The notes: generated from the sequence alone by a model not told the origin. Positions 1 through 32,000 are shown, counted from the first letter of the stretch. The stretch: DNA of 32,000 bases from Candidatus Absconditicoccus praedator (GCF_021057185.1 NZ_CP054059.1:810001-842000), one strand, 5' to 3'. A program made the numbers and translations.

Positions 1-510
1 TATATGTTGTTTTCATCTAGCAAACTCATTATTACTATGTATAACTCTATAGTGTTTCTTGTATCATAAGTCTACTAATCAATCATAACTTTTCCAGTAG
101 TCTGTGTTTATCTTGCTGTTCTCTAAACTTACTTTATCTCTTATAATTGGTATTAAAGTTTCTGCTGAACAATCAGGAACTATACGCACATAAACTTCTC
201 ACTCTCTCTTCAATAGTCATAAAACTTTAATTTTTCAACTAGCTCAACGTCATCTTTTTCACCTAACTCTTCTAGCTCCAAAGTAGCTCTCATCTATCTC
301 TACTACTCATCATCGTATCTCTAAATCTGTTTCTTTACTATGGTTGTATATTACTTCTCTAAAGTATTTATACCACCTATTTACTGTTTTTCTTTCAATA
401 TTTAATAAATTACTTGTTGTTGAAGCAGTCAAATCTTCACAAAATAGCTTCATAATTTGTCTTGTTTTTTGTACACTCAAATGGCTATTTTTTCTATAAG
501 GGTTTTTCAT
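1..510 (-). CDS. IS1595-family (ISXO2-like) transposase, first 170 codons; the 3' end runs off the window
   Basis: Track ORF 310..510 (MKNPYRKNSHLSVQKTRQIMKLFCEDLTA...) continues in frame to nt 1 once TGA is read as Gly. The continuation is ...DLEIRGGVVEIDESYFGARRVRGKRGRGASGKIKVLGLLKREGEVYVRIVPDCSAETLIPIIRDKVSLENSKINTDYWKSYDGLVDLGYKKHYRVIHSNNEFARGKQHI. I recognise the HTH N-terminus and the EIDESYFG / GKRGRG / YDGL / FARG-HI blocks as the IS1595/ISXO2-like DDE transposase core. 11 of the 12 Gly codons in this fragment are TGA. Confidence 0.85.
1..510 (-). mobile_element. IS1595-family insertion sequence, partial; only the transposase 5' portion is in the window and the element boundaries cannot be determined
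   Basis: Rests on the transposase call above. The inner end must lie somewhere in 511..~730. No terminal inverted repeat can be identified because the other end is outside the window. Confidence 0.6.
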
Positions 511-554
511 AGTTATGACCTAGTATAATTAATTTCTTTTTGCTTTCAAGTACT

Positions 555-710
555 CTAGACCCTAATTTTTTTCAGGTTCATATACATTTTCCCATGCAAC
601 ATTTTTTTTGTGTTAAAAATATCAATTAAGAATTGCTTCATTCTTTCTCTAATATAATTAGTGACTCCTGGTGGAGTTTTAGGTTTGTTGATAACAGTAA
701 TAGATCTCAT
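555..710 (-). CDS. Hypothetical small basic protein (51 aa); weak call
   Basis: ATG at 710, TAG at 555..557. Sequence MRSITVINKPKTPPGVTNYIRERMKQFLIDIFNTKKMLHGKMYMNLKKIRV. It sits between the IS and the M23 gene on the same strand. I recognise no family. It could be chance or a remnant of a gene disrupted by the IS. Confidence 0.2.
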   Translation of the reverse strand: MRSITVINKPKTPPGVTNYIRERMKQFLIDIFNTKKMLHGKMYMNLKKIRV

Positions 711-730
711 ACTATTATTTTGTGAATCTA

Positions 731-3061
731 TTAAAAATTAATAAGAGTTCTAACAGCATCTTCTAATTCTTCTTCTTGTGATCTTTCTGCTGTTTGATAT
801 TCTTCAGGAGAGAGTTGTATGTACCTATATAAAGATTCAAATGCTTTTTCTCTGTTTACATGTTTGTGTGGGTTCATGTAGTCTGATTCTTCAAATGGAT
901 AGAGGCTATAATTTTTAGCTGCATCTGCATATTTTTTGAACCAATCATCATTGTTTACATCCATAAAGTTAGTGAAGTTTTCATTTCTTGTGGTGTCAAA
1001 AAATCTTCCATACATTGCAAGTAGTTCTGCTTTTTCAATTGGTTGATTTGCATTAGCATGAGTTCATCAGGCTCATTTTACTATTCAGTCTTTATAGGCT
1101 TTGAATACATATGGTGCATACCGTTCATTTCAACTTATATCTTCTAGGAATCTTCATTTTTCTTCAATATACTCATTCATTTCTTCTTTAAATTTCTCTG
1201 TTTCAGCTCAATGTTTATGTCTAGCTAGGATGGTTATAACTTCAGATCTTTCTATGTTGTCTTTTGGCATAAGTTTTCAGTTGTGTCATTGAACTATTCT
1301 TTGTTCATTCAAATATTTCATACTATTTCAGTAATTATCGTTAATACTATAATCAGTAAATACTTCTGAGTTTACATTTTTGCTTCATCTTAGTGTTTGT
1401 CAATCTGCTTCAAATTTAGCTTTTAATTTGTAATCCTCAGCTTTGGGTGATTTTATATCAAAATCGATACTTTCTTTGTCTCATTCTGCTTTTTTACTTC
1501 ATATATCATTTTCATTTCAGTCATTGTCAACAAGTGTTATAGATAACTTTCATTCCATTGGTCTATTTAATTTTCATCAGTACTGATCCATTAAATATAC
1601 AGAAAAATTTTCTTCTTTTGTTGTGTATATTGTATTTGGTCATTCTATTGAAAGTCAGTATGCTTCAGCACTTTCTTCATATACACTAAAATAAAAATCT
1701 TTTTTATTTTTCCCATCATTAAATATTATCCTTCAGTTTCACATATTTTGGGCAAGTATATTTACAGTTTGTTTTTCTCAATCCTCGGGTGAAATTGTAG
1801 TTTTTGAAGGTTCAAGTACATTATTATTAGTAGTTATAGTGATTTGTCATTGTTCTCAGCTAGTTTCAACTTCAAATTCAATGTTATCTCATTTTATAAG
1901 CTCTTCTCATATTTTTGGATTGTAAATGTTTTGTATTTTAAATGGTTCTTTTTCTTCTCAAGCAGCCTCATGGGTATATTCATCTCAAAGTTCTCAGACT
2001 ATTTGATCTAATAAATCATCATCTTCAGTTTTGTCCTCTTCTTCCACTTCTTCCATTATTTCTTCAGCTTCTTCTTCTTCAACTTCTTCCATTTCTTCTT
2101 CGTAGTCTGTGTCAATTTCCTCAAATGCATCAGTAACAGGTTGTAGGTTGTTTTCTATAAAGCTTATTGGATTTTTTGTGCTATTTTTAACTCACTCAAT
2201 TGTGCCGTTTTGCCATTCTTCCCGTAGTTTATTAGCCATTTCAATATCTGAAATATCTTCAATATCTCATAATGTGTTTATTTGAAAATGAAGGTGAGAC
2301 ACGGTTGTTGTTCAGCTTGTTCAAACAGTTCATATATTTTCTCATCTATTTATAATGTCTCATTTTTCTATATTATTATCAATTTCATCTAGATGAGCAT
2401 AGAATGTAGCTAATAATTCTCACTCAAAATTGGTTCAAATTATTACATAGTTTCAAAATCATCAATTTCATTCTTGTTTGTCAAGTACAATTCAGTTCAT
2501 GCTATTGTATACAGGAGTTCATTTAGGGTTTACTATATCTATTCCTGCATGAGTTCAAGTTCATTCATCCCATCGTTTACAATTGTTTTGATTGCATTCA
2601 TAGCTTGCGGTCCATAATGTTGTGAGTAATCTTTTATAAAAGGTAACTTTTTGTCTTTCTAGAGGATTTGAAACAGTTTCCCATATTCTATTTGGATTTA
2701 CAAATCTATACTGATCAACAATATGAGAAACTTCATTTGGAAATGGTGTCCTTTTATCTTCTGGTACCTCATCCCATGATTTATTTCTCACTGATTGATA
2801 ATTGTGAACTCTTCATCGATCTACTACTTTTCTAAATGGCCATATAGCCTGTTCGTCTTTTATTTCATCCTTTTCATCAAGTATTTTTTCTGTTGTAACT
2901 AGTCATTTTCAGTATTTTGAAATATCTGTAAAAAAATTTTGAGTACTAGTATCTATACTAAAAATGTAAATTCAAAAAGCAAATACAATAGTTAAGACTC
3001 ATACTTTTTTGAAAAATAGATTTTTGCTCTTATTTATTTTTTTTATTTTTATGTTTTTCAT
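731..3061 (-). CDS. Membrane-anchored M23 (LytM-type) metallopeptidase with a poly-Glu linker and three SLH-like C-terminal repeats (776 aa)
   Basis: Under table 25 this is a single ORF: ATG at 3061, TAA at 731..733, length divisible by 3. Track fragments 2561..2791 and 731..1015 lie in the same frame. N-terminal hydrophobic anchor: VGVLTIVFAFGIYIFSI. M23 signature: GTHAGIDIVNPKGTPVYNSMNGIV...GGFGNYVII...FYAHLDEI...GDIINRGENIGTVGTSGTTTVSHLHFQI (about 2270..2570). Acidic run: EEEMEEVEEEEAEEIMEEVEEED (about 2017..2107). The C-terminal repeats resemble S-layer-homology domains, e.g. ERYAPYVFKAYKDGIVKGAGGTHANANQPIEKAELLAMYGRFF. Confidence 0.85.
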
Positions 3062-3208
3062 TTTGTTTTTTGTTTATATAAAATTCAACATAATTAATAT
3101 TTTAACATCTTATATTATAACTAAATATTAAATATTTGTCAAAAAATGTATTTTTTATTTGAAAAAATAAAATCTTTTTTTAATATGTATAATGTTTTAT
3201 TATAAAAA

Positions 3209-4222
3209 ATGCCAATGTTGAAAACTTTTGCAATTGAAACTAGTTGTGATGATACCTGTGTGGCGATTGTAGAGTACTATGATTGAGTTATAAAAACTAA
3301 TAATAGTTTTTCGTATTCACAAATTGCAGATCATCAAAAATATTGATGAGTTGTCCCAGAAGTTGCCTCAAGAATACACAATGAAAAGATCTTACAATTA
3401 ATTCAAAAAGTTGGAATTGATAATATAAAATGATGTGATTTTATTAGTTATACTTCAACCCCAGGTTTGCCTTGATCTTTGTTGGTTTGAGCAACAACTG
3501 CAAACATGCTTTCAAATTTTTTATCAAAACAGTTAGTGTCAGTAAATCATATTTATTGACATATATTCTCATTGTTTTTGGATAGAAAAATAGAAAGTAT
3601 TAAATTTCCAATGGTTGTGTTAACTGCATCTGGTTGACACAATGATATATATTTTGTAGATAAAACAGATTGAAAAAATACGGATCTATGAAAATATAAA
3701 ATAAAAAAAATTTGACAAACAATAGATGATGCTTCATGAGAAGCTTTTGATAAGGTTTCTAAAATGCTTGGATGACCATATCCTTGAGGTGGATGGATTT
3801 ATGAAAAAGCTAAAAAATGAGTTTCAAAATATGATATAACTCCAACTTTTTTGAAAAAAGATGAATTCAATTTTAGTTTTTCTTGAACCAAATCAAAAGT
3901 ATATTATATTATAAAAAACTTACAAAAAGAAAAACAAAATCTATCAGAGCAAGATGTGTATGATATAGCTTATGCATTTCAAGAGTGAGTAGTAGAGGTG
4001 TTATCAAAAAAACTATTGTCTGCTGCAAACAAATATTCTGCTAAAACTGTTGGGTTAGCCTGAGGGGTGTCTGCTAATAGTAGGCTATTGGATTATTTTC
4101 AAGATCTCAAAAAACAAAAATGAAACAAAAAATTAGAATTACTTGTGCCTGCTGAGAAGTATTACTGTACTGATAATGCTTGTATGATTTGAGCTGCTGG
4201 TATATTGTCCAAACTATTTTAG
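3209..4222 (+). CDS. tsaD: tRNA N6-adenosine threonylcarbamoyltransferase TsaD (Kae1/Gcp family), 337 aa
   Basis: Table-25 ORF from ATG 3209 to TAG 4220..4222. Sequence MPMLKTFAIETSCDDTCVAIVEYYDGVIK...HQKYGGVVPEVASRIH...VVLTASGGHNDIY...DDASGEAFDKVSKMLGGPYPGGG...GLAGGVSANSRL. I count about 20 in-frame TGAs, many on conserved glycines (GG at 3344..3349). Confidence 0.93.
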
Positions 4223-4242: not shown

Positions 4243-5850
4243 ATGAGGTGATCAAAAGTTTTGTATCTAATAGTGTCTTTGTTTTTGATTTTATGAGCAG
4301 TAATATTTTATTTTACCTATAAAGCTGAAAAAGAGTTTCAAGAAAGATTAGATGAGGTAGGAAAGACAATGGATAAAAAAGATTCTAAGGTGTATCAAGA
4401 AATTGAGGAAGATATAAATATAGAAGAAACTGAAGATGCACAAAAAAAAGATGAAAAAAAGGATATACAAGATGATATTGAAGATTCAATTGAAGAAGAT
4501 ATTCAAAAACAGCTTGATGTTGAGGGTGTATATGAAGATGTTTCTGAATCTCAACTACAAGAACTACAAAGTGAGTATTCAGACAATATATGAGTTAATG
4601 AGGATTTTTGAAGACTTCGTATTCTTGAAGATATATATGAAAAACAGCCTTCAAAAGAGATTTTGGTATTATTAGTTGAAGGGTTTGCATGAGTAAAAGA
4701 TTATGATACAGCATTGGAGTATCTGAAAGATCTTTATTCTCAAGATCCTGAACTTGCTGATATGGATATATATCTTCTTTTTGAAGTGTTTCTTAATTCT
4801 ATGTCTTTTTCAAGAAATAATTTAGAGCAAATTCAATCTATTGCTGAAAGTTATAATCAAGACTGATATCTTTCTGACTGAGACAAAATTTTTTTCAACT
4901 CTTTGATATCTCTTGTTCATTTTGAGTATGAAGATTTTTTTGAGAAAGTTGAAAAAATAGAAGACGGAAAATATTTGGATTTTAAAGATGATATAAGAAT
5001 GATAAAACAACAATATGAAAACTTTAAAGATGCTGAAGAGTATTATATAAATTGATTATTGAGTTTTGTGTTGTATCAACATTGATATTATAAAATAGCA
5101 AAAAGAATAGCTATGGATGTTTTGGAAGAGAATAGTAGTTATATTTTACCTAACCAAGTTTTGTGATATTCGAATTTTTTGATGTGAAATTTTGAAGAGG
5201 CAAATGATTTTTTTAGAAGCTTGCTTGATTATGATTCTACTAATTTTTCATTGTATAACTTTTTCATTGGTATATCTTATTTTTGGCTTTGAGAATATGC
5301 TAGGGCTGTAACTTTTCTTTCCCAGGTAGAAAATCATGATGAAATACTAGATGTAAAAAGATATTTAATAGTTTCTTATAAAAATCTTGAGCAATACTGA
5401 AATATGATGGATTATTTTCAAAAACTTTTGGAGTTGGGAAAACCTTTAACTGAGTATGACTATTATACTTTTTTTGATGTAGTTTTTTATCAGCCATGGA
5501 AAAAATCAGATTCATTTGATTTACTTAAATCAAATCCAAGGCTTGTAGTAGATTACATAAGTTGATGTTATGAACATATGGATGAAAATAAATTTCCTTG
5601 TAGATATGCAAGGTGATGATTTCATTTTGCTAGGTGACAATACGATATATGAATTAGATATCTAGAACATATTGTAGAAGAATTTCCAAGAAATTATATT
5701 TTTGAGGCAATAGGTGATTATTACTATGAAAAAGAAGAGTTTGATAAGGCAAGAAAAAATTATATTCTAGCCATAAGGTATTCAACTGATTCTGAAGAAA
5801 GAAAAACTTTAAGAGACAATATTTATAATATAATATTAGAGCAGAAATAA
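4243..5850 (+). CDS. Membrane-anchored TPR-like repeat protein with an acidic N-terminal linker (535 aa)
   Basis: ATG at 4243, TAA at 5848..5850, in frame with track ORF 4369..4593. N-terminal TM: VLYLIVSLFLILGAVIFYFTY. This is followed by a D/E/K-rich linker and then helical repeat units of TPR character, e.g. GNFEEANDFFRSLLDYDSTNFSLYNFFIGISYFWLGEYARAVTFLSQV and AIGDYYYEKEEFDKARKNYILAIRY. Confidence 0.7.
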
Positions 5851-6155: not shown

Positions 6156-6650
6156 ATGACATCAGTTAATGATCTATTAGTGAAAATGATAAAAGAAATT
6201 GACTTGTTTAAGGATTTTTCTGATGATGATATATTGGATTTAGCAAATAGTTTTGTGTTAAAATATTATCCATCTTGAAGCCTTATAATAAGAGAGTGAG
6301 AAAAGCCCAATAGTATATATATATTAAAAAACTGAATATTAGAAGCAAAAAAATCGCATTGATTGTCTAGTATTCATTTGTGAGATATAAATCCTTGAGA
6401 AATATTTTGAGAAATGTCCTATATAAAATGAGGAAACTCAATGGCAAGTGTTACTTCAAAAGAGGATAGTGATGTATGGCAAATAAGTGTTGAAGATTTT
6501 GATAGGTTTATAAAATCAAATCCTGGATTGATGGATAGTATATATGAAACTATGAAAAAAAGGGAAGAAATGAATAGTTCTTCTTCTTTCAATAAAGTTT
6601 CTAATAATAAACAAGATGATGATATAGACGACATTAAAATTAATATTTAG
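6156..6650 (+). CDS. Stand-alone cyclic-nucleotide-binding (cNMP/CAP-effector) domain protein, 164 aa
   Basis: ATG at 6156, TAG at 6648..6650, in frame with track ORF 6441..6650. Sequence LFKDFSDDDILDLANSFVLKYYPSGSLIIREGEKPNSIYILKNGILEAKK...LGDINPGEIFGEMSYIKGGNSMASVTSKEDSDVWQISVEDF. This matches the cNMP-binding beta-barrel pattern, including the FGE motif. There is no attached DNA-binding or output domain. Confidence 0.8.
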
Positions 6651-6669: not shown

Positions 6670-8343
6670 ATGTTTGTAAGGTATAAAAGTTTATTTATCT
6701 ATTTTTTTGTTTTCATTTTATGATTGTTTTCTATATTTTTTATAGGATATGAGTTTGATGAAGCTTCATGAGAAGATGAAATGAAAATAACTTCCAATTG
6801 AATAGCTCATTTTAAAAAGTGACTTGATGTTGCTTGATGAGTTAGACTTACTTATAGAATAGATTATTCAAGATATGAGCAGATATATCAGGATGAGCAA
6901 AGACTTGAAGAAGTAAAAAGTAATGTAGAGTCTATAATTTTGCAAAATATAGATGATAGGATATCTGCTTTGGGAGTTAGTGATTATTCAAGTTATATTC
7001 AATCTATTTGAGAAGAGGATTATGTGGTCGTAGAAATAGGATGAGTTCAAGATATAGATGCAGCAAAAGATATAATATGAAAAACAGTAGAGTTAGAGTT
7101 TAAAGTGCCTTTTGAAGATGAAGATAGAGATGATGAAACCAAAGATTCAAGACAATTGTTATCTGAAGAATTTCTAACTCAGCTGGTTAATGAAGAAAGT
7201 AGCTTTGAAGAAATATATCAAGAAAATCAAGACAATTGAGTGAGGTTGAATACACATCAATGAGATGATATAGATGAATTTCCTTCATATATTCAAGAAA
7301 ATTATGATGAACTTGTAGAGTGATGACAATGACATATTCTTCCTTCATTAGTAGAAGATGAAGAAGAGGAAAGTTGGTATATTTTATGATTTGAATGACA
7401 ACAAGAGTGAAATTATTCATTTTTGGCTTTAGAAGTTGATTATTATCCTCAATGGCATGCTGCAAGAGATCCTGAGTCTGGACAGATATTGAATGCTGCA
7501 TTTTTTAACTATGCTAGTGTTGATTCTTCTGAAACAGGTCGTCCAGTTGTTTTGGTTAGATTTAATTCTGAGTGATGACAGATATTTTGTAATCTTACTA
7601 ATCAGCATGTTGGTGAACAAATGGCAATTTTTGTTGGCTGACAACTTAGGACAGCTCCAGTTATAAGAGAAAGTATTTGTGGTTGAACAGCTCAGATAGA
7701 TGGTGATTTTGATTCACAGTGAGCTAGAGAGCTTGCTGATAGTTTAAACGAATGAGCAATGCCGGCCCCATTACTTTTGTCTCAAGAAGAAATGGTTTCT
7801 CCTACATTGTGAGAAAATGCTCTTAATGCGGCTTTGATTGCTGCTTGAGTTTGATTTTTCTTGATATTTATTTTCATGATATTTTTCTATGGTTGGAAGA
7901 TGTGATTAGTTTCTTTGATTACGTTACTATTTTTTCTAACAATTCTTTTCTGACTTGTTAAGGTGCTTTGATATGCGTTATCCCTTAGTTGAATAGCTGC
8001 AGTAATATTGAGTATATGAATAGCTGTGGATGCAAATGTGCTTATTTTTGAAAGAGTTAGAGAAGAAATGAAATCTTGAAAATGAAAAATATTGTCAATA
8101 CATGACTGATTTGCAAGAAGTATATCGGCAATAAGAGACTGAAATCTTACTACTTGATTGATTGGTCTTCTTCTATTTATGATATGAACAAATGTGTTTA
8201 GAGGTTTTGGTACTATGATGATAGTAAATATTGCTTTGATACTAGCAGTAGTTGTGCCGTTGACGAAATTGCTTTTGCTTTTAATTTATGATTATACTGA
8301 AGAAGATTCTACTGAAGAAGCTACTAGTGTTGTTCAAGCATAA
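6670..8343 (+). CDS. secD: Protein translocase subunit SecD (557 aa; not a SecDF fusion)
   Basis: ATG at 6670, TAA at 8341..8343. N-terminal TM, then a large periplasmic-type domain (GRPVVLVRFNSEGGQIFCNLTNQHVGEQMAIFVGGQLRTAPVIRESICGGTAQIDGDF...ARELADSLNEGAMPAPL). The C-terminal TM bundle reads [30 protein letters not shown]...SISAIRDGNLTTGLIGLLLFMIGTNVFRGFGTMMIV. Confidence 0.9.
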
Positions 8344-19896: not shown

Positions 19897-19924
19897 TTGA
19901 CAAAAAATTTTTTTTTTGTAAAAT
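19897..19924 (+). promoter_or_regulatory. Sigma-70-type promoter candidate for the sortase cluster (TTGACA-N16-TAAAAT)
   Basis: ttgaca at 19897..19902, taaaat at 19919..19924, 44 nt upstream of the ATG at 19968. Confidence 0.55.
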
Positions 19925-19967
19925 ATATTTATTGAACTATTTAAATAAAAACAAAAATCACAATAAA

Positions 19968-20963
19968 ATGAATCAAGTAAAACTTCAAGATTTATGAAGA
20001 AAAAAAACATCAAAAATTAAAGAAAGTAATTATAACTCAAAAAAAACCAAGACTACTTATTCAAGATGAAAATCAAAATTTAACTTTTTTTCAATATTTG
20101 GTGAACTTTTTAGGTTTTCTATTGTTTTGTCTGTAGTTACAATATGATGAATAATCTTTGTAAACATGAATCTTTTTTATTATACCTTTAAGGAAACTTT
20201 TTTTTCTCATGAAATTTATGCTGGTGATTCTTCTTTTGCTACTGTAGAAGACTTTTCAAGTTTTAATCAACCAGAAAAATCTGAAAACAATTCATCTAAT
20301 ATTCAAGATCAAGATAAAGTACAGGATGATAGTTTTAGTGGGATAGAAGATGAAAAAATCCGCTGAATGGTAGAAGATTGACTTTCACAGGTAGATTCTG
20401 AAGATAATATAGAAAACAGAAAAAATATGAAAGATATTTTAAGGACAAATTTTAATGACTATTCTTTTGATTTTAATCTAAATCCGCCTGATAATAGAAT
20501 AATAATTCCTTCTATATGAGTAGATGCTCCTATTGTAGATGTTGATTATGTAAATCCTCAAAAAATGGCAGAAGCTAATTTTGAAGAAGAATTATATGAT
20601 GGTGTAGTGAAATATCCTTTTACACCTTCTCCTGAAGATGATTGAAATATGTTTGTTTTTTGACATACAAGTTATTATCGGTGGAGAGATAATGATTATT
20701 GAGAAGTTTTCGCAAGAATACCAAGATTGGATGATGGTGATAAAATAAAAGTCCTTTGGTGATGAAATCTTTATAAGTATGAAGTTGTTACAAAGGCAAT
20801 AAGACGGCCAGCTGAAGTATGAGATTTTTATGAAGAGCATAGAGATTGAAATTATATAACATTGATGTGATGTTATCCTATTTGATCAAATGCTCAAAGA
20901 ATCTTGGTTATGGCAAAACAATTAGAAGAAGTAGAAAGTGATGAAATTGTCTTTAAAAATTAA
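19968..20963 (+). CDS. Sortase-family transpeptidase with a long basic N-terminus and a TM anchor (331 aa)
   Basis: ATG at 19968, TAA at 20961..20963, in frame with track ORF 20166..20366. TM: FRFSIVLSVVTIGGIIFV. Sortase blocks: RIIIPSIGVDAPIVDV, catalytic His in NMFVFGHTSYY, catalytic Cys in YITLMGCYP (TLxTC-like), and the downstream Arg in AQRILVMA. Confidence 0.8.
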
Positions 20964-20971
20964 AAATAAAA

Positions 20972-23035: not shown

Positions 23036-25498
23036 ATGGTAGATAAAGTTGTATTGTGGGCAGAACAACTTGGAAAAAAATTGGCACAATTTTTTGACTT
23101 TTCTTCAGTAAAAAAAGATGAATATCTAGTATATAAGATAAAACCTTTTAAAGAGGCAGAAAATAGTATTACATACTGGGAGTGATTTGTTGATAATTTT
23201 GTGTGACTAAAATGAAAAATATATTTTGTGATAGAATGAAACAAAAAGTCTATTCAAAATTATGCTATAGTACCACCAGAACTGCAAGATTTGTTTGAAA
23301 GTAGTTTTTATTCTTACTTTGCAGATTCTGAAAGTTTTCAAGTAGATAAGAAAATCCATATAGATAATATTAGGTATATAAATTTTGGTTTTGAAAAATT
23401 TTATACAAGACAGGATTTTACAAAAGATTGAGTTTACTTAGACCCTTTGAAAAGTATATATTGAGTTTTTTATAATATTAAAGAAGAAGACTGAAAACTT
23501 AATTTAATTTTTGGATATGATTTAAGTGTAAAAGATTGACTTTGTTGAAAAATTAAAAAATTATTTTTAAAAGTATGATTTTTGAATCAACCAGAAGAGC
23601 AAGACGAATCAAAAAACAAAGAAAAAATATGATTTTTTATTTGATTAAATCATAACTTTAAAAACTCAGAGCATAAATCACTGAAAAATCTTACTTCTGT
23701 ACTGGATTCATTAGGAGAATGATGAAAATCAAAAATAACATCAAGGAAGAAAGTATTTAAGCTTGATATAGAACAAATTTCTAATTTTTTTCATTTGCCT
23801 TCTAGTAATTATGTTATTAAAAATTTAGACTATTTAGAATTTAGAAAACTTCCTTTTCCGCCCAATGTACCAACTCTAAATAATACAGATAAAAACAATA
23901 TCACATTACTTTGATACACCGACTATAAAAATGAGTCTTCAAAGTTTGGTATTAAAAATGAAGACAAGTTTAAACATATGTATGTGATTTGAAAAACTTG
24001 AATGTGAAAATCTACACTTCTTTCAAATATGATTAGAAGTGATTTTGTTAGTAATAAGTGAACCGCAGTGATAGATCCACACTGAGATTTAGTGGAAACT
24101 TTATTGCAGTATGTACCTTCTTGGAGAAGTAATAATGTTGTACTATTTGATGTTACTGACTATGAGTATCCTATAGGTTTTAATATACTTCAATATCAAA
24201 CAGAAGAAGAAAAAAATTTAGTTGTCAGTGGTATAGTTAGTACATTCAAAAAATTATATTGAGATAGTTGGTGACCTAGACTTGAATATATATTAAGAAA
24301 TGTTATTTTGTCTTTGGTGGAGTATCCAAATGCTACACTTTTGCACTTGATAAGGATTTTGAAAGATAAAAATTTTCAAGAAGAAGTGTTGGAGTATGTA
24401 AATGATCCAATAGTTCTAAAGTTTTGGAGAGAAGAATTTGATAAATGGCAAGATAAATTTAAGGATGAAGCTATAGCTCCAATAGTTAACAAAGTTTGAC
24501 AGTTCTTATCTTCTCCTATAATAAGAAATATTTTTGGTCAACCTCAAACATCCTTGAATTTTAGAAAAATAATGGATGAATGAAAAATACTGCTTATAAA
24601 TCTTAGTAAATGAAAAATATGAGAAGATAATGCAAACATGATTGGTTCTTTTATAGTTACGAAGTTTCAAATTGATTCAATGTCTCGTGCTGATCTTGCT
24701 TTTGAAGATAGAAATGATTTTTATTTGTATATAGATGAGTTTCAAAATTTTGCTACTGAAAGTTTTGAAAGTATTCTTTCAGAAGCAAGGAAGTATAAAC
24801 TTTCTTTGGTTGTAGCAAATCAATATATTTCTCAAATAGATGAAAAGATAAAAAATGCTATATTTGGTAATGTAGGTACTATAATTAGCTTTTGACTTGG
24901 TTATGATGATAGTAAAATAATATCAGACCAGTTTAAAAATATTATAACTCCTCAAGAAATTATTTCATTACCTAAGTTTAAGGCCTATGCAAAGCTTGCA
25001 ATTGATTGAGTTACATATGATCCTTTTAGTATGGAAACATTCCCTCTTCCTAAGCCACAACAGTGAGAAGATACAAAACAAAAAATAATAAAACAATCAA
25101 GACAAAGATATTGAAAAGAAAAAGAAAAACTTGAAGCATATATTAAACAGTGGTCTGATAAATCTTTTTCTAAAACAGAAAAGGCAGTAGAAAAAGCAAA
25201 GAAAATGTCCTCATCACAAAATAATAAAGAAAACAAACCTACAAAATCAAATAATGATGAAAATGTTTGAATAGAGCTTTGACAGTGGTTTGATGGTATA
25301 GTAAAACTAAAATATAATTATTGAGTATTTGTGATAGTTTGAGAAAATGAGTGATTGCTTCATAAAAAAAAGATATCTGTACCAGACTGAGTAAGGTGGA
25401 AAGACTTGTATCAGATTTGAGATCCTATAAAAGTAAAAGCAGAAGATTATAAAGAAGTGGATTGAGAGCAAAAGATAGTTTGGACACAACTTGATTAA
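23036..25498 (+). CDS. VirD4/TraG/TraD-like (FtsK-HerA superfamily) P-loop NTPase with a C-terminal S1 OB-fold domain; no TM segment (820 aa)
   Basis: ATG at 23036, TAA at 25496..25498, in frame with track ORFs 24308..24499 and 24638..24895. Walker A: VIGKTGMGKSTLL, in which all three Gly are TGA (23990, 23999, 24005). Next come AVIDPHGDL and Walker B FYLYIDEFQNF. The coupling-protein C-terminal pattern is ILSEARKYKLSLVVANQYISQID...IFGNVGTIISFGLG. The C-terminal 76 aa match S1: GQWFDGIVKLKYNYGVFVIVGENEGLLHKKKISVP...YQIGDPIKVKAEDYKEVDGEQKIVWT. Confidence 0.82.
23990..24016 (+). other. Walker A / P-loop coding segment (G-KT-G-M-G-KST) with all three glycines encoded by TGA
   Basis: Codons are tga aaa act tga atg tga aaa tct aca. 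Frame checked: (23990-23036) is divisible by 3. Confidence 0.85.
25268..25495 (+). other. S1-like RNA/ssDNA-binding OB-fold domain at the C-terminus of the ATPase
   Basis: Residues 745-820 of the 23036..25498 product, with the motif spacing G-x-V-x-G-x-V...YG-x-FV...EGLLH...GD-x-I-x-VK typical of S1 domains. Confidence 0.65.
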
Positions 25499-25559: not shown

Positions 25560-27035
25560 ATGCAAGAGTTTTTAAAAAGACAAAAGAAACTAGTATTATA
25601 TATTTCTTTTTTTATGTTTTTTTTTATTGTTTTTTTGATTTCTTTTTGGTATTACAAAGAAAATTATATTCAATTGACAACTAGTTCAATATTTTCAAGC
25701 TACTATTATGATGTAAAGTGAAGCTTATTAGAAATTGATTGAAAAAAATTTTCTGATATAAATAAGAACCAATTCAACCATGATGAATTTTATGATTTTT
25801 TTCAAGAATGGTGACTTGATACAAATAAATTTGATAGATTTTTCGCAAATATCAAGCTATTAAAAAAGGAATATGAGTCTGCTGAGTCAATTCTACCAGA
25901 GCTTTTGTGGGAAGATTTTTTTAATTTATGAAATATTGTTTTTTTGGAATCTTATGAGAAATTAATTGAAAATGATAACAAAGTTAGTGATTTTTATAAA
26001 ATACATGATTCATTTGATCAAGCGATAAGATTTTATAATCAGTCAGCTCAAATCTTATGAGATCCAACTGCTAGATGAGCAGAAAAGATTATAGAAAATA
26101 GAGTAAGTGTATATAATTTTAGGTTTTTGTTGTGAATAAAGATATGTGCAGAAATATTTTCTATGGCATTGGAAAGAATAGACTCTCTAATAGATAGAGT
26201 TGATAATATACTACAGCAGTTTATTAAACAAACTGAAAAAATAGAAGATCGGAAAGATGAAATTACTGATAATACTTTGAAAGAATGTTTGAATGATTAC
26301 TATGATTCATTGATAATTTCTTATGAAAATGTGCTTGGCATAAGAAGTTTGTTGTTGGAGTATGAAGAGTGAGCATTATCAAGGTTGGAAAAATGAATAG
26401 AAAATCCATATATGTGTGTAAGCAACTCAAAAGACTATTATGAAAGGCTTTCATCTGCTTTTACTCAAATAGAGGACTCCTTAGACTCTTACTCTGAAAT
26501 GAATTGACTTTTATTAGAGATTCTTGAGGAAGAGGATAAAGATACATTAAGAAATTTTTGTGAATCTTCTGATGAGTATTCAGAATACACTCAAGATGTT
26601 AATCAAGATTTGAATGAGTGACTTTGAGAGTTGGATGATATGCTTAATCCTGAAGATCAACAGCCTGTTCCACAACCAGAAGAACAAGAATGAGATCCAT
26701 TTTTTGAGTATGATGAAGAGTGAGATATGTTTGAGCCGGATTGATTTGATGAAGATGGTTTCCCTTGAGCTTGAGAACCATATCATGAAGAAATTCCAGA
26801 AGATGAACAAGATGAGTTAAGAGATATGATAAGAGAAAATGCAGAAAGATGGATTGAAGAAATGTTATACCTTAGGTGAGAGGAATGATACAATCCTTCA
26901 GATTATTTGGACCAGTTTTTTGGAGAATTTTATGGTTGAGAAGAGTGATTTGGTTGATACGAGCTTGATATTAGGGAGGGTTGAGGTTTACAAGATTTTT
27001 ATCAGGATGATTGATTTGCTCCAGATGAGTTTTAA
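25560..27035 (+). CDS. Membrane-anchored hypothetical protein with a helical middle region and an extremely acidic, aromatic/Gly-rich C-terminal tail (491 aa)
   Basis: ATG at 25560, TAA at 27033..27035, in frame with track ORF 26163..26372. TM: LVLYISFFMFFFIVFLISFWYY. Tail: ...EEQEGDPFFEYDEEGDMFEPDGFDEDGFPGAGEPYHEEIPEDEQDE...YLDQFFGEFYGGEEGFGGYELDIREGGGLQDFYQDDGFAPDEF. No family recognised. Confidence 0.72.
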
Positions 27036-27050
27036 AAATATATTAAAAAA

Positions 27051-27887
27051 ATGGAATCTATAGATTTTTTCGATTTTCAGATACATCTTTATTGAGTTTT
27101 TTATTTTGTGAGTTTTGTGATTGGTTACTTGTTTTTTTATTGGATAGGTAAAAAATGATTTTTTAAAAAAGATAAAAAATTTCAAAGGTTTTTGGAAAAA
27201 TGACTTGATGATTTGGCTTTGGCTTCAATACTTTGAGTTTTAGTCTGAGGTAGGCTTTGATATGTGTTGTTCTATGATTTGTGATATTTTATGGAAAACC
27301 CTTTGCATATATTTTTCTTGTGGCAGTGAGGTATGGCTTTTGTATGAGGAGTTATTTGAGTTATTTTATGATTTTTTTATATCAAAAGAAAATATTCTCT
27401 TAACTTTTCTCATCTTTTGTTGTTGTGAGATTTGGTGTTGATAATTTGAACATTATGAATTTTTTTGTGAAGGATATGAAATTTTCTAAATCAAGAACTT
27501 TACTGAAAACCTGTGAAAGATTTGCCATTTGTTTTGAATATAAATCTTTTGGAAAATGTTTGACTTTATTATACTTATGATAGAGTTGATGATAAAATTA
27601 GGGTAAATACCAATATTATAGAGGCTATACTTGAGGGTTTGGTGCTTTTTATAGCTTTCTTGATAATATTTTTCAAAAAATATGTAAAAAATAATTTTAA
27701 ACCTTGATTTATAGTGGCTTTATTTTTGATTTTTTATTCTATTTTTAGGTTTTTTGCTGAATTTCTAAGAGATGAAAGTATGGTTGATTATGTTTGGATT
27801 TTTACAAGCAGTCAGTGGTTTATGTTTTTGTTTTTCTTTTCATGATTATGGATTTGGATATATTTGCTCAAAGATTTAAAAAAATAA
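27051..27887 (+). CDS. lgt: Phosphatidylglycerol--prolipoprotein diacylglyceryl transferase Lgt (278 aa)
   Basis: ATG at 27051, TAA at 27885..27887. Sequence LGVLVGGRLGYVLFYD, FLWQGGMAFVGGVIG, LGIFLGRIGNFLNQELYGKP, and EAILEGLVLFIAFLII...FIVALFLIFYSIFRFFAEFLRD. Under the standard code this gene looks heavily interrupted. Under table 25 it is intact. Confidence 0.9.
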
Positions 27888-27889
27888 AT

Positions 27890-27918: not shown

Positions 27919-27946
27919 ATTACCAACTTTATACTAAATAAAAAAT

Positions 27947-30900
27947 ATGAAAATAAAAAAAATATTGTTAATTTTGATGGGAGTGTTTTTGTTGTCATTT
28001 TCTATAAGTGAAGATGTTGTACCTTCCTATGAGTTTTGAGTATGAAGATCTTCTGATTTACAAGAAATTTTTGAAAAACAAGCTGTATCATATAAGGATA
28101 TGACCAAGATTATTTATTTATCAAAATGATATGATTGTAAAATTCCACCAAAAGAATGGAAAAACAAACTTAGTAAATCATGGTATGATTCTTATTCTGT
28201 AATAAACAACAAAGAATACAATTTTGATATAGAAAATAAAGAATACTATTGTTTTGGGTATCCTCTTTATAGATGATATTTAGATTCTTTTTTCTCAGAA
28301 GACCAAAATATTTCTAACAATATTCATTATAAAAATCTTGTTTCTTTTGTTTATCAAGTCTTGAAAGATAAATCAGATGTATATCAAAAAATAGAGTGAC
28401 TTGATTCTAATGATGATCTAAGAAACTGTCTGGAAAGCTGATGTAACTTGAAAAATTTTGATGCTACTTGAAATAATTATTTTGATAAATGACTGATTAT
28501 TTTGGATAATCTAGGTATTGTTGAGTCTTCTTTATCTATAGTTGAAAATATAAATTCAAATGTGTCATGAGAAAAACTTTTTGATGTAGCGGTAGGTATA
28601 AGAGAGGTTTCATGAAGTTCGCTGGATACAGATTATAGTGGTGATGGAGTGTTGAATCATAATGATAATTGTCCATATCATTACAATCCAAATCAACAAG
28701 ATACCAGTGGTGATTGAGTTTGAGATGTATGTTCTTCAGATATAGATTGAGATTGAAATTTGAATCCAATATGAATCGTAAATAATCAGTGAAATATCAA
28801 TTTTGACAAAAAATACATAGCAGGAGCTTGATATTTTTTGGAAGACTGACAGTTGTGTAAAAATTATGTATGAGATGTACAAAGAATTGAGCCAGAGCAA
28901 AATTGTTTTGATATTGATACTAAAATTTGAACAGAGAGTAGTTTTAACTGATATAATGAAGAATGAGTTGGTGTAACTTCCTCATCAATTAGTTCAGATG
29001 ATGGAATTTTATATATTTATGATGGTAGTATTGAAATTGAATATGAAGATGATGTGGTTTTTGCAATGAGTAATCAACGACCTTTGCAACCTGATAATAT
29101 GTACTTTTCAGATTTTGATGAAAATGTTATAGTTTGATATGATTGATTTGAGTTTGATGAGATTCAGGAAATCAATTGGTTTTTGGACTGAGAAAAGATT
29201 ATAGAAGATAAAAGGATGTTTAGAAAAAACTTTGATGATGTTTGAAAAAAAACTATTTGAATAGAGGTTGTTACATCAGATTGAGTTAATTTTTTTGAAT
29301 TTGATATGCTTGTGCAAAATGTATGAGAAAAATGAAATTATGAACCATTTGAAATAGACGTGGATGAGGTGTCTTGATATCATCTTTCTATTGATGCAGA
29401 TAATCAATCTATAACTCAATGAGATACGATAAATTTTCAAGTAAATACAAATTTTGAATATGATGAGATTGAATGGGATTTTGGTGATGGTAGTTATTGA
29501 TACTGAACTAGTGTTGAAAATGTTTATTCTGATGCAGGTAAATTTAATGTTGTAGCAAGATGAAAGGTTGATGGTGAATATGTTTCTAGCGCTTTAATAA
29601 ATGTTTTTGTTGAATCAGAAAAAAAATATTCTTCTTTACAGATAAGCTGTGAAAGGTCAACTTGAATTGTAGAATGTAATGCATTTTGAGAAAATGTAGA
29701 TGAAGTGGTTTGGAGATATGATAATGTTGAAGAAGAAAAAGATATCCATGATAGTTTTGTGCTGGAATGAAATGCTTATGAAGACTTTTCTTGACAAATA
29801 TTGGCATTGTGAAAATATGATTGAGATCAGGTGGCAGAATCCAATTCCTTTATAGAAGAAAATTATCGTTCATATATATATATAAATGAAGATCAGGCAA
29901 TAGTTTGAGAAAGATTTGATATAATGACTGATATGGGTGGTTTTGATCAAGATGATATAGATGTAGTAGAATGGAACCTTAATGGTGATTTTCGCGAAAC
30001 AGATAGTGTAGATATATCTTGGATATTTGATGAGTATTGAGAAAAATATATCCAACAAAACATATATTTACAAGATGGTAGTGTATTGTCAAATAGTTTG
30101 AGTTTGTTTGTCCAAGAATCTTGACTTTGAGTCTCTCCTTTTCAAATACAGTCAGATTTGGTGTTGTCTACATTTTCATCAAATGTGTTTTCTCTTGATT
30201 TTGAAAATATTGATTATGATTATATAGATAAAATTAGGTGGGATTTTTGAGACAAAAATACTATAGTAGATGAAGATATATCAGAGGAAAGTATGGAAAT
30301 AGAATATTGATATAATTTATGATGAAATTATGATTTGAAAGTTTTTGTATACACACAATCTTGAGATGTTTTAACAAGTTCAATAAATTTGTATGTGCAA
30401 TGACAAGATTTTTGTGATGGTGATGTATCTCAACTAAGTTGTGATATGAGTGGTGATGGAGTGCCTGATTTATGTAGTAATGATATTTCTGGTGATTGAT
30501 TTGAGAATGTAGATAATCTTATTGTGTCTGAGCCTGAAGAAAGAGATGATGATGGGAATTGTGTATATGAAGAAGAACATATAAATATTAATGCACTCAA
30601 ACAACAAGCTGAAATGGCAAATAATTTCCAAGAATATGATGTTTGTCCTTTTGATGACAATCCAAATCAGACTCATTGAGTAGGTGATTGAATAGGAGAT
30701 GAATGTAGGTGGTTGGCTGATATGTTGGATGATGTAGAAGAAAACTTTCATGAACCAGATTTCAACAATGAATTATATATAGATACTGTAAATGTATTGT
30801 CTTGTCCTGCTCATTATGCAGACTTTGAGTCAACATTATGGAGGTGAGATACTATAAGAGCTGTGTTGTATGATCAAGATTTGGAGAAAGTTTATTCGGT

Positions 30901-30961
30901 TTCCAATCTATTTGATTTGGATGAAGATGTAGGTGTATTGGCTCCAGATGTGTCTCCATAA
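27947..30961 (+). CDS. Large secreted protein with thrombospondin type-3-like calcium-binding repeats and PKD-like domains (1004 aa)
   Basis: ATG at 27947, TAA at 30959..30961; I verified the frame at 29381 and 30281. Signal peptide: MKIKKILLILMGVFLLSFSIS. TSP3-type repeats: DTDYSGDGVLNHNDNCPYHYNPNQQDTSGDGVGDVCSSDIDGDGNLN (28625..28770), then CDMSGDGVPDLCSNDISGDG and CPFDDNPNQTHGVGDGIGDEC near 30410..30710. PKD-like modules carry WDFGDG (29474..) and WDFGDKN (30238..). There is no LPXTG-type C-terminus and no lipobox. Confidence 0.82.
28625..28770 (+). other. Thrombospondin type-3-like Asp-rich Ca-binding repeat block
   Basis: D-x-D-x-D-G-x-x-D-x-x-D-N-C-P-x-x-x-N-x-x-Q-x-D pattern read directly. 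Several of the Gly positions are TGA. Confidence 0.7.
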
Positions 30962-31058
30962 TATACTATGAAAAAAATAAATTTTTTTTATTTGCTTATT
31001 TAAGTAGATATCCTAATCTTATTTTCATTTAATTTGTCGTAAAATATATCAAAAAAGT

Positions 31059-31086
31059 TTGACATTTATATTTTTTTTGATATAAT
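31059..31086 (+). promoter_or_regulatory. Strong sigma-70-type promoter candidate (TTGACA-N16-TATAAT with a TGn extended -10)
   Basis: ttgaca at 31059..31064, tg at 31078..31079, tataat at 31081..31086, 41 nt upstream of the ATG at 31127. Confidence 0.65.
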
Positions 31087-31126
31087 TTTGTTGGTATGAA
31101 ATACATTTATAAATAAAAACAAAAAA

Positions 31127-32000
31127 ATGAGATATGTATTTATAATAATATTCGTATTTGTTTTTTGGGGTTGATTGGTTAATGCAGAATGGGTGCATAA
31201 GTGAAATGTATGAAGTAATGGTAGATGTGGTGCTTGAGAATTGGTTCAAGTATATTGATGACCATCATCTTGAACTAGATCTCACGAGCGAGGTGATGGT
31301 ACTACTATATGATGGAATGGTACTAGATATAGGCAGATAAATTGACCATGAAATACAAGTGCATCATGTTTAGAGTGGCAACCAGATACAAGTACAAATG
31401 ATTTTGATGTTACTCTTGACTGAGTAGACTGAACAAGTTCTGAAAATTGGGTCTTAGCAAATGAGCTTACTGTAGAAATTTCTTATGATGAAGATTCTGT
31501 TTGTTGACCTGCTTGATGTAATTCAATTGATATTAGCTGGGAATTTCATAACAGTGATGGTTCTGGTTCTACAACAATAACTTCAACAAGTCATAGTTTT
31601 AGTGTTGATTTGACTGATTTATGAGGTGCAAATGAGCAGGAATTTGAATTGTCAATTGATAATATTGACACTAATGCTACTTCTAATCATAGTCAGAATG
31701 TAAGGTATGACTGGCGAGTATTTGCAAATGAGCCAGTAACTCCACATTTTTCTAATGACTTTTATGATACAAGAGTTGGTAATGATAGTGATAATTTTAG
31801 GTGACGTATAAGATTAAGAGATGAACATGGAAATTATGTAGTACCAGTTCAGAGAATAAATAGAGAAGTAAGAGTAAATTTTGGGTACGATAATCATGTG
31901 TATTTACAACAATATAAAAAAGATTGGGAAGATGACTTGAGTTGAGGAGATAGTTGAATAAGATACCAAAGAACTGCTGATTCAAGCTATAGTAAATTTG
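31127..32000 (+). CDS. Secreted hypothetical protein, N-terminal 291 codons; continues beyond the window
   Basis: From the ATG at 31127 the frame stays open (no TAA/TAG) to the window edge. Signal peptide: MRYVFIIIFVFVFWGGLVNA. A Gly-rich, TGA-dense stretch follows, then beta-rich sequence (ISWEFHNSDGSGSTTITSTSHSFSVDL). The standard-code track ORF 31158..31340 is in a different frame. Confidence 0.7.

What the first reader, a model, noticed from the sequence alone, without database searches (positions are those of the whole stretch)
1..32000. TGA is decoded as glycine across the whole window (table 25), so the supplied standard-code ORF track is an artefact
Under the standard code, 32 kb yields no ORF longer than 124 aa. 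With only TAA/TAG as stops, 18 ORFs (16 complete) tile about 94% of the window (30229 of 32000 nt by my sum), and every complete one ends in TAA or TAG just before the next start. In-frame TGAs land on invariant glycines of families I recognise:
- TsaD: HQKY-GG-VVPE (TGA TGA at 3344..3349) and AS-GG-H.
- TrpRS: HL-G-NY (11988..11990).
- ATPase Walker A: G-KT-G-M-G-KST (23990, 23999, 24005).
- M23: S-G-PHLHFE (22328..22330).
- Lgt: GGRLGY and GRIGNF.
- Transposase: GKRGRG.
TGG is still used for Trp (WDFGDG at 29474..). This excludes the Mycoplasma-type TGA=Trp code. The frequency of TGA excludes selenocysteine. The code is established only for Gracilibacteria (BD1-5) and Absconditabacteria (SR1), which places the contig in those Patescibacteria lineages.
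Basis: partly seen in the sequence, partly recalled or inferred. Interest (0 to 1): 0.85.

Follow-up and report, generated by a model that had tools for sequence, protein, structure and literature searches.

The report
UGA-glycine code in a known bacterium
The window comes from the published genome of the predatory bacterium Candidatus Absconditicoccus praedator, which reads the stop codon TGA as glycine as its lineage is known to do, and probably also reads CGA and CGG as tryptophan, so the finding is correct but not new.

Summary
Under the standard code the longest ORF is 124 aa. With TGA as a sense codon, 18 ORFs cover 30,228 of 32,000 nt, and all 16 complete ones end in TAA or TAG.

TGA means glycine, not tryptophan:
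- Against solved-structure homologues of TsaD, TrpRS, Lgt, SecD and M23, 101 of 159 TGA-aligned residues are Gly and none is Trp.
- Against four standard-code IS1595 transposases, 37 of 43 are Gly.
- Against orthologue DNA from relatives, window TGA pairs with TGA (314) or GGN (68) and never with TGG (0 of 634).

TGA is the main glycine codon here: 549 TGA against 198 GGN.

The source is known. The glycine translations are exact matches to GenBank proteins UFX83270.1 to UFX83283.1 of Candidatus Absconditicoccus praedator, on a 1,129,696-bp contig. This is an Absconditabacteria (SR1) member.

One correction: table 25 is probably incomplete here. At all six testable CGA/CGG codons, relatives carry TGG (14 of 18 pairs) and never an arginine codon. 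This matches the CGA/CGG-to-Trp reassignment already predicted for Absconditabacteria.

I could not check tRNA-Gly(UCA) or loss of RF2 in this genome. Relatives do carry the tRNA.

The parts
1..510 (-). IS1595-family transposase, cut by the window start (170 aa seen). It has 11 TGA codons and one CGA (aa 66, 313..315).
   Evidence: Pfam DDE_Tnp_IS1595 at 2.3e-11 with TGA masked. Against 4 standard-code plasmid homologues, 37 of 43 TGA-aligned cells are Gly; the CGA column is variable and uninformative.
731..3061 (-). M23 peptidase (776 aa) with 52 TGA codons. CGA at 2816..2818 (aa 82) and 2573..2575 (aa 163); CGG at 2222..2224 (aa 280) and 1121..1123 (aa 647).
   Evidence: Pfam Peptidase_M23. 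Orthologue DNA in L004-L006 has TGG at these four columns in 10 of 12 cells, CGA once and TTT once.
3209..4222 (+). TsaD (337 aa) with 20 TGA codons, including the TGATGA pair at 3344..3349.
   Evidence: Pfam TsaD at 8.4e-54. PDB 8iey: 13 of 19 TGA-aligned residues are Gly. The Gly translation exactly matches UFX83270.1.
4243..5850 (+). TPR-repeat protein (535 aa) with 18 TGA codons.
   Evidence: Pfam TPR_14 and TPR_19, weak hits.
6156..6650 (+). Cyclic-nucleotide-binding domain protein (164 aa) with 9 TGA codons.
   Evidence: Pfam cNMP_binding at 9.2e-11. Exact match to UFX83272.1.
6670..8343 (+). SecD (557 aa) with 37 TGA codons.
   Evidence: Pfam SecDF_P1_head and SecD_SecF_C. PDB 3aqp: 13 of 20 TGA-aligned residues are Gly.
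8369..11869 (+). Large protein of 1166 aa with no Pfam hit and 64 TGA codons. Its translation begins with long hydrophobic stretches, so I read it as a membrane protein (by eye, not predicted).
   Evidence: No Pfam family. An orthologue lies on the Vampirococcus lugosii contig L039.
11937..12917 (+). Tryptophanyl-tRNA synthetase (326 aa) with 15 TGA codons, including the HL-G-NY glycine at 11988..11990.
   Evidence: Pfam tRNA-synt_1b at 4.7e-52. PDB 3m5w: 11 of 14 TGA-aligned residues are Gly. Identical to the A. praedator protein P0001 except X for G.
13066..17772 (+). 1568-aa protein of unknown function with 82 TGA codons.
   Evidence: No Pfam family. Orthologues in L001 and L002.
17792..18733 (+). 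MscS-type mechanosensitive channel (313 aa) with 16 TGA codons.
   Evidence: Pfam MS_channel_2nd. Exact match to UFX83277.1.
18968..19777 (-). VCA0040-like (undecaprenyl-phosphate translocase-like) membrane protein (269 aa) with 23 TGA codons.
   Evidence: Pfam PF04018 at 3.3e-38.
19968..20963 (+). Sortase (331 aa) with 16 TGA codons. CGG at 20679..20681 (aa 238) and 20805..20807 (aa 280).
   Evidence: Pfam Sortase. At the two CGG columns the orthologue codons in L001-L003 are CGG,TGG,TGG and TGG,TGG,CGG. The GenBank table-25 protein P0143 has Arg at both sites.
20972..22966 (+). Second M23 peptidase (664 aa) with 34 TGA codons, including the S-G-PHLHFE glycine at 22328..22330.
   Evidence: Pfam Peptidase_M23 at 1.6e-16. 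PDB 6u2a and 2gu1 alignments.
23036..25498 (+). ATPase of 820 aa, named HerA/DUF87 in GenBank and matching TraG-D_C in Pfam. The Walker A glycines are TGA at 23990, 23999 and 24005.
   Evidence: Pfam TraG-D_C at 3e-06. Exact match to UFX83281.1. Coordinates checked.
25560..27035 (+). 491-aa acidic protein of unknown function with 24 TGA codons and one CGG at 26250..26252 (untested).
   Evidence: No Pfam family. Codon list.
27051..27887 (+). Prolipoprotein diacylglyceryl transferase Lgt (278 aa) with 20 TGA codons.
   Evidence: Pfam LGT at 2.3e-36. E. coli Lgt 5azb: 11 of 18 TGA-aligned residues are Gly, including those in GGRLGY and GRIGNF. Exact match to UFX83283.1.
27947..30961 (+). PKD/TSP3-repeat protein (1004 aa) with 55 TGA codons. 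TGG encodes the Trp of WDFGDG at 29474. One CGA at 29078..29080 (untested).
   Evidence: Pfam PKD_4 and TSP_3. Sequence check.
31127..31999 (+). Protein of unknown function, cut by the window end, with 19 TGA codons. CGA at 31289..31291 and 31715..31717 (untested).

Best explanation
The window is a stretch of the chromosome of Candidatus Absconditicoccus praedator (Absconditabacterales, formerly SR1). This organism translates UGA as glycine, the code known as NCBI table 25. Only UAA and UAG terminate translation, and UGG stays tryptophan.

Shown here:
- Genes are intact only when TGA is read through.
- TGA sits on glycine columns of standard-code homologues.
- TGA exchanges freely with GGN in relatives and never with TGG.
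- TGA has become the main glycine codon, at 73% of glycine codons in a genome of 28% G+C.

Inferred from the lineage, not shown for this genome:
- UGA is read by a dedicated tRNA-Gly with anticodon UCA, which carries the glycine identity set G1:C72, C2:G71, G3:C70 and U73.
- Release factor 2 has been lost.

In addition, the rare codons CGA and CGG are most likely read as tryptophan rather than arginine. The real code would then be table 25 plus two sense-codon changes, as predicted computationally for Absconditabacteria in 2021.
For: ORF structure:
- The longest ORF is 124 aa under the standard code, and 18 ORFs cover 94.5% of the window with TGA as sense.
- Only freeing TGA opens long frames: 1583 codons, against 168 for TAG and 299 for TAA.

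Composition: TGA makes up 5.4% of residues and GGN-encoded Gly only 1.9%, which together give a normal Gly content. TGG-encoded Trp is 1.07%.

Homologues that use the standard code:
- 101 of 159 TGA-aligned PDB residues are Gly and none is Trp. The window's own GGN codons align with Gly at 33 of 54.
- 37 of 43 cells are Gly in IS1595 transposases from Francisella, Trichlorobacter, Hymenobacter and Acinetobacter.

Codon pairs against orthologue DNA:
- Window TGA pairs with TGA 314 times, GGN 68 times and TGG 0 times, out of 634.
- Window GGN pairs with TGA 77 times out of 199.

Source: exact protein matches to UFX83270.1, UFX83272.1, UFX83277.1, UFX83281.1 and UFX83283.1, and to the TrpRS protein, with taxonomy.

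Lineage mechanism:
- A tRNA(UCA) with a Gly-type acceptor stem lies at L003 211..284.
- A pattern scan found such tRNAs on 104 contigs of representative genomes; judging by the record titles, most are from this clade. They include Vampirococcus lugosii and an Absconditicoccaceae MAG.
- The literature reports loss of RF2 and proteomic proof of UGA=Gly in BD1-5.

CGA/CGG: at 6 of 6 testable sites the partners are TGG 14, CGA/CGG 3, TTT 1 and Arg codons 0. AGA/AGG codons pair with TGG 0 times in 353.
Against: - There is no tRNA gene in the window, and the genome outside the window could not be read. tRNA-Gly(UCA) and absence of prfB are therefore unverified for this organism.
- My tRNA pattern scan of representative genomes did not return A. 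praedator.
- About a third of TGA-aligned cells are not Gly. This equals the rate for the window's own GGN codons.
- For CGA/CGG, only 6 of 11 codons could be tested and all lie in two protein families. The 18 codon pairs are not independent.
- One untested CGG (26250) sits in a highly charged stretch where Arg would look natural.
- There are no peptide data for this organism.
Confidence: 0.97

Rival explanations
1. The code is strict table 25: UGA is Gly and CGA/CGG keep their standard arginine meaning, as in the GenBank annotation.
For: GenBank and RefSeq translate these codons as Arg, for example sortase P0143. Five of the 11 CGA/CGG sites are untested, and one (26250) lies in a charged Glu/Lys/Asp-rich stretch. 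Farther sortase homologues show R, K or S at the aa 280 column.
Against: At all six testable sites the clade orthologues carry TGG or CGA/CGG and never AGA, AGG, CGT or CGC. Window TGG pairs with CGA/CGG in relatives 4 times, while AGA/AGG never does (0 of 353). A standard-code Peregrinibacteria homologue (P0142) and a table-25-annotated one (P0138) have Trp at M23 columns 82 and 647. The literature treats CGR=Trp as the state of Absconditabacteria.
Confidence: 0.12
2. UGA is read as tryptophan, as in Mycoplasma and some insect endosymbionts (table 4).
For: Many public database proteins of relatives carry W at these positions. This comes from gene calling with table 4, not from evidence about decoding.
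Against: There are 0 Trp among 202 TGA-aligned cells of standard-code homologues and 0 TGG among 634 codon pairs. This reading would give 6.5% Trp and 1.9% Gly in the proteome. TGG is kept on conserved Trp sites.
Confidence: 0.01
3. The standard code applies, and the TGAs are real stops in decayed pseudogenes, sequencing errors, or selenocysteine or read-through sites.
For: None beyond the bare presence of in-frame TGA.
Against: The 549 in-frame TGAs all lie in one frame per gene. Homology continues across them at full length. They sit on conserved Gly motifs such as Walker A, HxGH-type HLGNY and GGRLGY. The same sequence occurs in an independent assembly, a Logan contig of 35,911 bp.
Confidence: 0.005

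Closest known systems
NCBI genetic code 25 (candidate division SR1 and Gracilibacteria; GTDB class JAEDAM01, orders Absconditabacterales and BD1-5). Campbell et al. 2013 and Rinke et al. 2013, as cited in PMC8629427; proteomic validation in Hanke et al. 2014 (PMC4032931).
   Same: UGA encodes Gly, UAA and UAG are the stops, UGG is Trp, G+C is low, and the lineage is the same. The window's GenBank record is translated to match this table: Gly at TGA and Arg at CGA/CGG.
   Different: Nothing differs for UGA. TGA is not merely an additional glycine codon here but the dominant one, at 73% of glycine codons.
CGA/CGG-to-Trp reassignment predicted for Absconditabacteria by Codetta (Shulgina and Eddy 2021, PMC8629427).
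   Same: CGA and CGG are rare (6 and 5 among 10,060 codons, about 11 per 10,000), and they sit where relatives have TGG.
   Different: The support here comes from orthologue codon comparison in one 32-kb window, not from Pfam-column inference. The tRNA side (tRNA-UCG or tRNA-CCG with Trp identity) was not seen. The public annotation of this genome does not apply the reassignment.
Vampirococcus lugosii (Moreira et al. 2021, PMC8080830), the other described predatory Absconditabacteria member.
   Same: UGA is Gly. It has a tRNA(UCA) with a Gly acceptor stem (L039). Its TrpRS is 63% identical to the window's, and it has orthologues of the sortase and of the 1166-aa protein.
   Different: It is a different genus with about 45-63% protein identity. 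I did not compare synteny for this species.
Table 4 (UGA=Trp) in Mycoplasmatales, Zinderia, Hodgkinia and others.
   Same: A UGA stop is reassigned in a small, AT-rich genome, with loss of RF2 reported for such lineages.
   Different: The amino acid is Gly rather than Trp, and the decoding tRNA has glycine identity elements.

Membership tests
Genetic code 25 (UGA=Gly) | Genes are intact only if UGA is read as sense, and UAA/UAG remain the stops. | tested here: met
   The longest ORF is 124 aa under the standard code, while 18 ORFs cover 94.5% with TGA as sense. All 16 complete ORFs end in TAA or TAG.
Genetic code 25 (UGA=Gly) | In-frame UGA aligns with conserved glycine in homologues from standard-code organisms. 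| tested here: met
   101 of 159 PDB-aligned cells are Gly, and 37 of 43 in IS1595 transposases. This matches the window's own GGN codons, at 33 of 54.
Genetic code 25 (UGA=Gly) | UGA is synonymous with GGN, and distinct from UGG, in comparisons within the clade. | tested here: met
   Window TGA pairs with TGA 314, GGN 68 and TGG 0 times out of 634. Window GGN pairs with TGA 77 times out of 199.
Genetic code 25 (UGA=Gly) | The genome carries a tRNA with anticodon UCA and the glycine identity set (G1:C72, C2:G71, G3:C70, U73). | not testable with these tools
Such tRNAs are present in relatives: L003 211..284, V. lugosii L039 and Absconditicoccaceae MAG L031, and a pattern scan matched 104 contigs. 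A. praedator was not among the pattern hits.
Genetic code 25 (UGA=Gly) | Release factor 2 (prfB) is lost. | not testable with these tools
   This needs the whole genome. It is reported as a hallmark of UGA-reassigned bacterial lineages in the literature.
Genetic code 25 (UGA=Gly) | The organism belongs to Absconditabacterales or BD1-5. | tested here: met
   Exact protein matches to Candidatus Absconditicoccus praedator. The NCBI lineage is Absconditabacterales, family Absconditicoccaceae.
Genetic code 25 (UGA=Gly) | Peptide evidence for Gly at UGA. | not tested
   No proteome data are available here. This was shown for a BD1-5 bacterium, with 97 peptides unique to UGA-Gly against 3 unique to UGA-Trp (PMC4032931).
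Genetic code 4 (UGA=Trp) | UGA aligns with conserved tryptophan. | tested here: not met
   0 Trp among 202 aligned cells and 0 TGG among 634 codon pairs.
Selenocysteine recoding | In-frame UGA is rare and occurs in a few selenoprotein families. | tested here: not met
   549 TGA codons occur across all 18 ORFs, about 5.4% of codons.
Absconditabacteria CGA/CGG=Trp reassignment | CGA and CGG are rare and align with tryptophan rather than arginine. | tested here: met
   There are 11 such codons in 10,060. At 6 of 6 testable sites the partners are TGG 14, CGA/CGG 3, TTT 1 and Arg codons 0. AGA/AGG pairs with TGG 0 times in 353. Five sites are untested.
Absconditabacteria CGA/CGG=Trp reassignment | tRNA(UCG) and tRNA(CCG) carry tryptophan identity (G73, no A20). 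| not testable with these tools
   No such tRNA occurs in the window or in about 0.8 Mb of relatives' loci scanned.

The most novel reading that the evidence does not exclude
Candidatus Absconditicoccus praedator reads CGA and CGG as tryptophan. Its public table-25 proteome would then carry Arg where the cell makes Trp, at 11 codons in this window alone and about 0.1% of residues. It is described in the literature as a cultivated member of Absconditabacteria, so this bacterial sense-codon reassignment, supported so far mainly by computation, could be tested directly by proteomics.
Probability: 0.85. Interest if true: 0.35.

Novelty: already known. Interest (0 to 1): 0.15.

Why it matters
For a genome scan the practical lesson is that the standard-code ORF track for this window is meaningless, and that gene calling must use the right code.

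The biology is textbook for this lineage. UGA=Gly has been described for SR1 and Gracilibacteria since 2013, and the source genome is published and already translated with Gly at TGA.

Two small points have some value:
- The deposited table-25 proteins probably mistranslate CGA/CGG as Arg instead of Trp.
- Many public protein collections hold relatives translated with table 4, with W at every UGA. This corrupts homology-based inference in this clade.

Tried and rejected
- Exact-product lookup of the A. praedator TrpRS (P0001), to reach the genome beyond the window: not on record.
It returned 104 contigs, judging by the record titles mostly from this clade, but not A. praedator. The organism's own tRNA(UCA) stays unseen, and RF2 absence could not be addressed.
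- The original description (Yakimov et al. 2022) and Campbell et al. 2013 are not held in the paper library.
- The Rfam gathering scan and ARAGORN on the window found nothing.
- The CGA codon in the transposase (aa 66) was compared with four standard-code homologues, but it falls in a variable, gapped region and is uninformative.
- Protein-level columns from database relatives were set aside as evidence for Trp, because most of those proteins were called with table 4, so W there may stand for TGA. I replaced them with codon-level comparison of fetched DNA.
- Rejected readings: UGA=Trp, selenocysteine, and pseudogenes or sequencing error (see the rival explanations).

Full report
**1. Observation**

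The window is 27.9% G+C. Under the bacterial standard code the longest ORF is 124 aa. It lies at 9397..9771 on the minus strand, antisense to a long TGA-containing frame.

I freed each stop codon in turn. Only TGA opens long frames: the longest stop-free frame is 1583 codons, against 168 with TAG freed, 299 with TAA freed and 133 under the standard code.

With TAA and TAG as the only stops, 18 ORFs (16 complete) cover 30,228 of 32,000 nt when measured from the first ATG. Gaps between genes are 8 to 305 nt. All complete ORFs end in TAA (11) or TAG (5).

- TGATGA at 3344..3349.
- TGA at 11988, 22328, 23990, 23999 and 24005.
- TGG starting WDFGDG at 29474.

**2. What the genes are**

I masked TGA as X so that the answer was not built in. 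Pfam then recognises these families:
- IS1595 transposase
- two M23 peptidases
- TsaD
- TPR repeats
- a cNMP-binding domain
- SecD
- class I Trp/Tyr tRNA synthetase
- the MscS beta-domain
- a VCA0040-like protein
- sortase
- TraG-D_C
- LGT
- PKD/TSP3 repeats

Four ORFs have no family. The window holds no tRNA and no Rfam family.

**3. Which amino acid TGA encodes**

Composition points to glycine. TGA is 5.4% of residues and GGN-encoded Gly only 1.9%, which together give a normal glycine content. TGG-encoded Trp is a normal 1.07%.

Alignment to proteins from standard-code organisms agrees. I aligned the masked proteins to solved structures: TsaD 8iey and 6n9a; TrpRS 3m5w, 5tev and 6mtk; Lgt 5azb; SecD 3aqp and 5xam; M23 6u2a and 2gu1.
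- 101 of 159 residues opposite TGA are Gly and none is Trp.
- The window's own GGN codons face Gly in 33 of 54 cells, the same rate.
- The background Gly frequency is 8.6%.

For the transposase, I used four standard-code homologues from plasmids of Francisella, Trichlorobacter, Hymenobacter and Acinetobacter. They give Gly in 37 of 43 cells.

Codon-level comparison with relatives gives the same answer. I fetched orthologue DNA (L001-L006, L026, L039, L054) and aligned it codon by codon, 11,197 codon pairs in all.

| Window codon | Pairs | Partner codons in relatives |
|---|---|---|
| TGA | 634 | TGA 314, GGN 68, TGG 0 |
| GGN | 199 | TGA 77 |
| TGG | 103 | TGG 79, TGA 2 |

TGA is therefore a glycine codon, synonymous with GGN and distinct from TGG. 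It is the dominant glycine codon: 549 TGA against 198 GGN in the window (73%), and 49 to 92% in relatives.

**4. Source**

The masked TrpRS is identical, apart from X for G, to the NCBI protein of Candidatus Absconditicoccus praedator on a 1,129,696-bp contig.

The Gly translations of five more window proteins are exact matches to GenBank entries of the same organism:

| Accession | Protein |
|---|---|
| UFX83270.1 | TsaD |
| UFX83272.1 | cNMP-binding protein |
| UFX83277.1 | MscS |
| UFX83281.1 | ATPase |
| UFX83283.1 | Lgt |

The accession numbers rise in the order of the window's genes. NCBI places the species in Candidatus Absconditabacterales, family Absconditicoccaceae. It was described by Yakimov et al. 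2022, cited in PMC12428579. The window is thus part of a published genome whose proteins are deposited with Gly at TGA.

**5. Mechanism**

The literature sets out the following:
- UGA=Gly is established for Absconditabacteria and Gracilibacteria, the GTDB class JAEDAM01.
- Reported hallmarks are a tRNA-Gly with anticodon UCA and loss of RF2 (PMC8629427; gTranslate preprint).
- It is stated for Vampirococcus lugosii (PMC8080830).
- Proteomics validated it in a BD1-5 bacterium, with 97 peptides unique to UGA-Gly against 3 unique to UGA-Trp (PMC4032931).

Here I could test only the lineage, not this genome:
- A relative's contig (L003) carries a 74-nt tRNA with anticodon UCA at 211..284. It has G1:C72, C2:G71, G3:C70 and U73.
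- I scanned the representative genomes with a structural pattern for such a tRNA. It matched 104 contigs. Judging by the record titles, most are Absconditabacteria- or Gracilibacteria-type genomes, including V. lugosii, an Absconditicoccaceae MAG, SR1 RAAC1 and oral taxon HOT-345.
- In most of these loci the tRNA heads a conserved cluster: UCA, Tyr, Ala, Arg(UCU), Glu(CUC), Leu(UAA).

A. praedator itself was not among the hits. Its tRNA(UCA) and the absence of prfB therefore remain inferred.

**6. A correction to 'table 25'**

Shulgina and Eddy (PMC8629427) predicted that Absconditabacteria also read CGA and CGG as Trp. Later papers treat this as the state of the clade.

The window has 6 CGA and 5 CGG codons among 10,060 codons. 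Six of them lie in proteins for which I could fetch orthologue DNA: M23 aa 82, 163, 280 and 647, and sortase aa 238 and 280.

| Window codon class | Pairs | Partner codons in relatives |
|---|---|---|
| CGA/CGG (six sites) | 18 | TGG 14, CGA/CGG 3, TTT 1, Arg codons 0 |
| AGA/AGG | 353 | Arg 178, Lys 46, TGG 0, CGA/CGG 0 |

Other points:
- In the reverse direction, relatives' CGA/CGG face window TGG four times.
- Both CGA (2 sites) and CGG (4 sites) are supported.
- An empirical likelihood ratio favours Trp over Arg by about 10^38, but the pairs are not independent and come from only six columns in two families.
- A standard-code Peregrinibacteria homologue (P0142) and a table-25-annotated one (P0138) have Trp at M23 columns 82 and 647.
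- The GenBank sortase has Arg at both CGG sites. The deposited proteins are therefore probably wrong at these positions.
- Five sites are untested, and the transposase site falls in a variable region.

**7. Verdict**

The feature is already known and the source genome is already translated with Gly at TGA, so interest is low.

The only additions are:
- the likely CGA/CGG=Trp extension in this particular, cultivated organism;
- the note that TGA is the majority glycine codon;
- the caution that database relatives are often translated with table 4, so W there can stand for TGA.

Noticed in passing
window 1121..1123, 2222..2224, 2573..2575, 2816..2818 (minus strand); 20679..20681, 20805..20807; untested: 313..315, 26250..26252, 29078..29080, 31289..31291, 31715..31717: The 11 CGA/CGG codons behave as tryptophan codons at all six testable sites: relatives carry TGG there and never an Arg codon. 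The GenBank table-25 proteins have Arg at these sites.
   Followed up: partly
whole window; relatives L001-L006: TGA is the majority glycine codon rather than an occasional extra one: 549 TGA against 198 GGN (73%) in the window, and 49 to 92% in six relatives' loci.
   Followed up: yes
L010 5555..5634 (IMGVR_UViG_3300020577_006161); also L009 3965..4039 and L007 480..552: Contigs filed as viral carry a tRNA(UCA) with a glycine-type acceptor stem. L010 is itself TGA-recoded: its longest stop-free frame is 218 codons under the standard code and 1502 with TGA as sense. It may be a phage of a code-25 host or a misfiled cellular contig.
   Followed up: partly
L003 211..2432 and about 60-80 of the loci L013-L116: In relatives, tRNA-Gly(UCA) heads a conserved tRNA cluster: UCA, Tyr(GUA), Ala(UGC), Arg(UCU), Glu(CUC) and, further on, Leu(UAA). 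In L003 the cluster lies next to infC-rpmI-rplT.
   Followed up: partly
database proteins P0131-P0137 and P0144-P0160: Many public protein records of relatives were gene-called with table 4 and carry W at every TGA. A W in these records is therefore ambiguous between true Trp and Gly, and protein-level alignments in this clade mislead.
   Followed up: yes
window 17792..22966; L001, L002, L003: The gene order MscS, VCA0040-like (opposite strand), sortase, M23 peptidase is conserved in three relatives at 38-49% protein identity. In the window, the frame holding the second M23 peptidase opens 7 nt before the sortase stop, and its first ATG is 8 nt after that stop.
   Followed up: partly
window 1..510 (minus strand): An IS1595-family transposase is cut by the window start. 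It is about 50% identical to transposases on plasmids of Francisella, Acinetobacter and other standard-code bacteria, yet it is fully recoded with 11 TGA glycines. The element has therefore been resident long enough to adopt the host code.
   Followed up: partly
window 8369..11869, 13066..17772, 25560..27035, 31127..31999: Four ORFs, including proteins of 1166 and 1568 aa, match no Pfam family. The two large ones have orthologues only in related Absconditabacteria loci.
   Followed up: no
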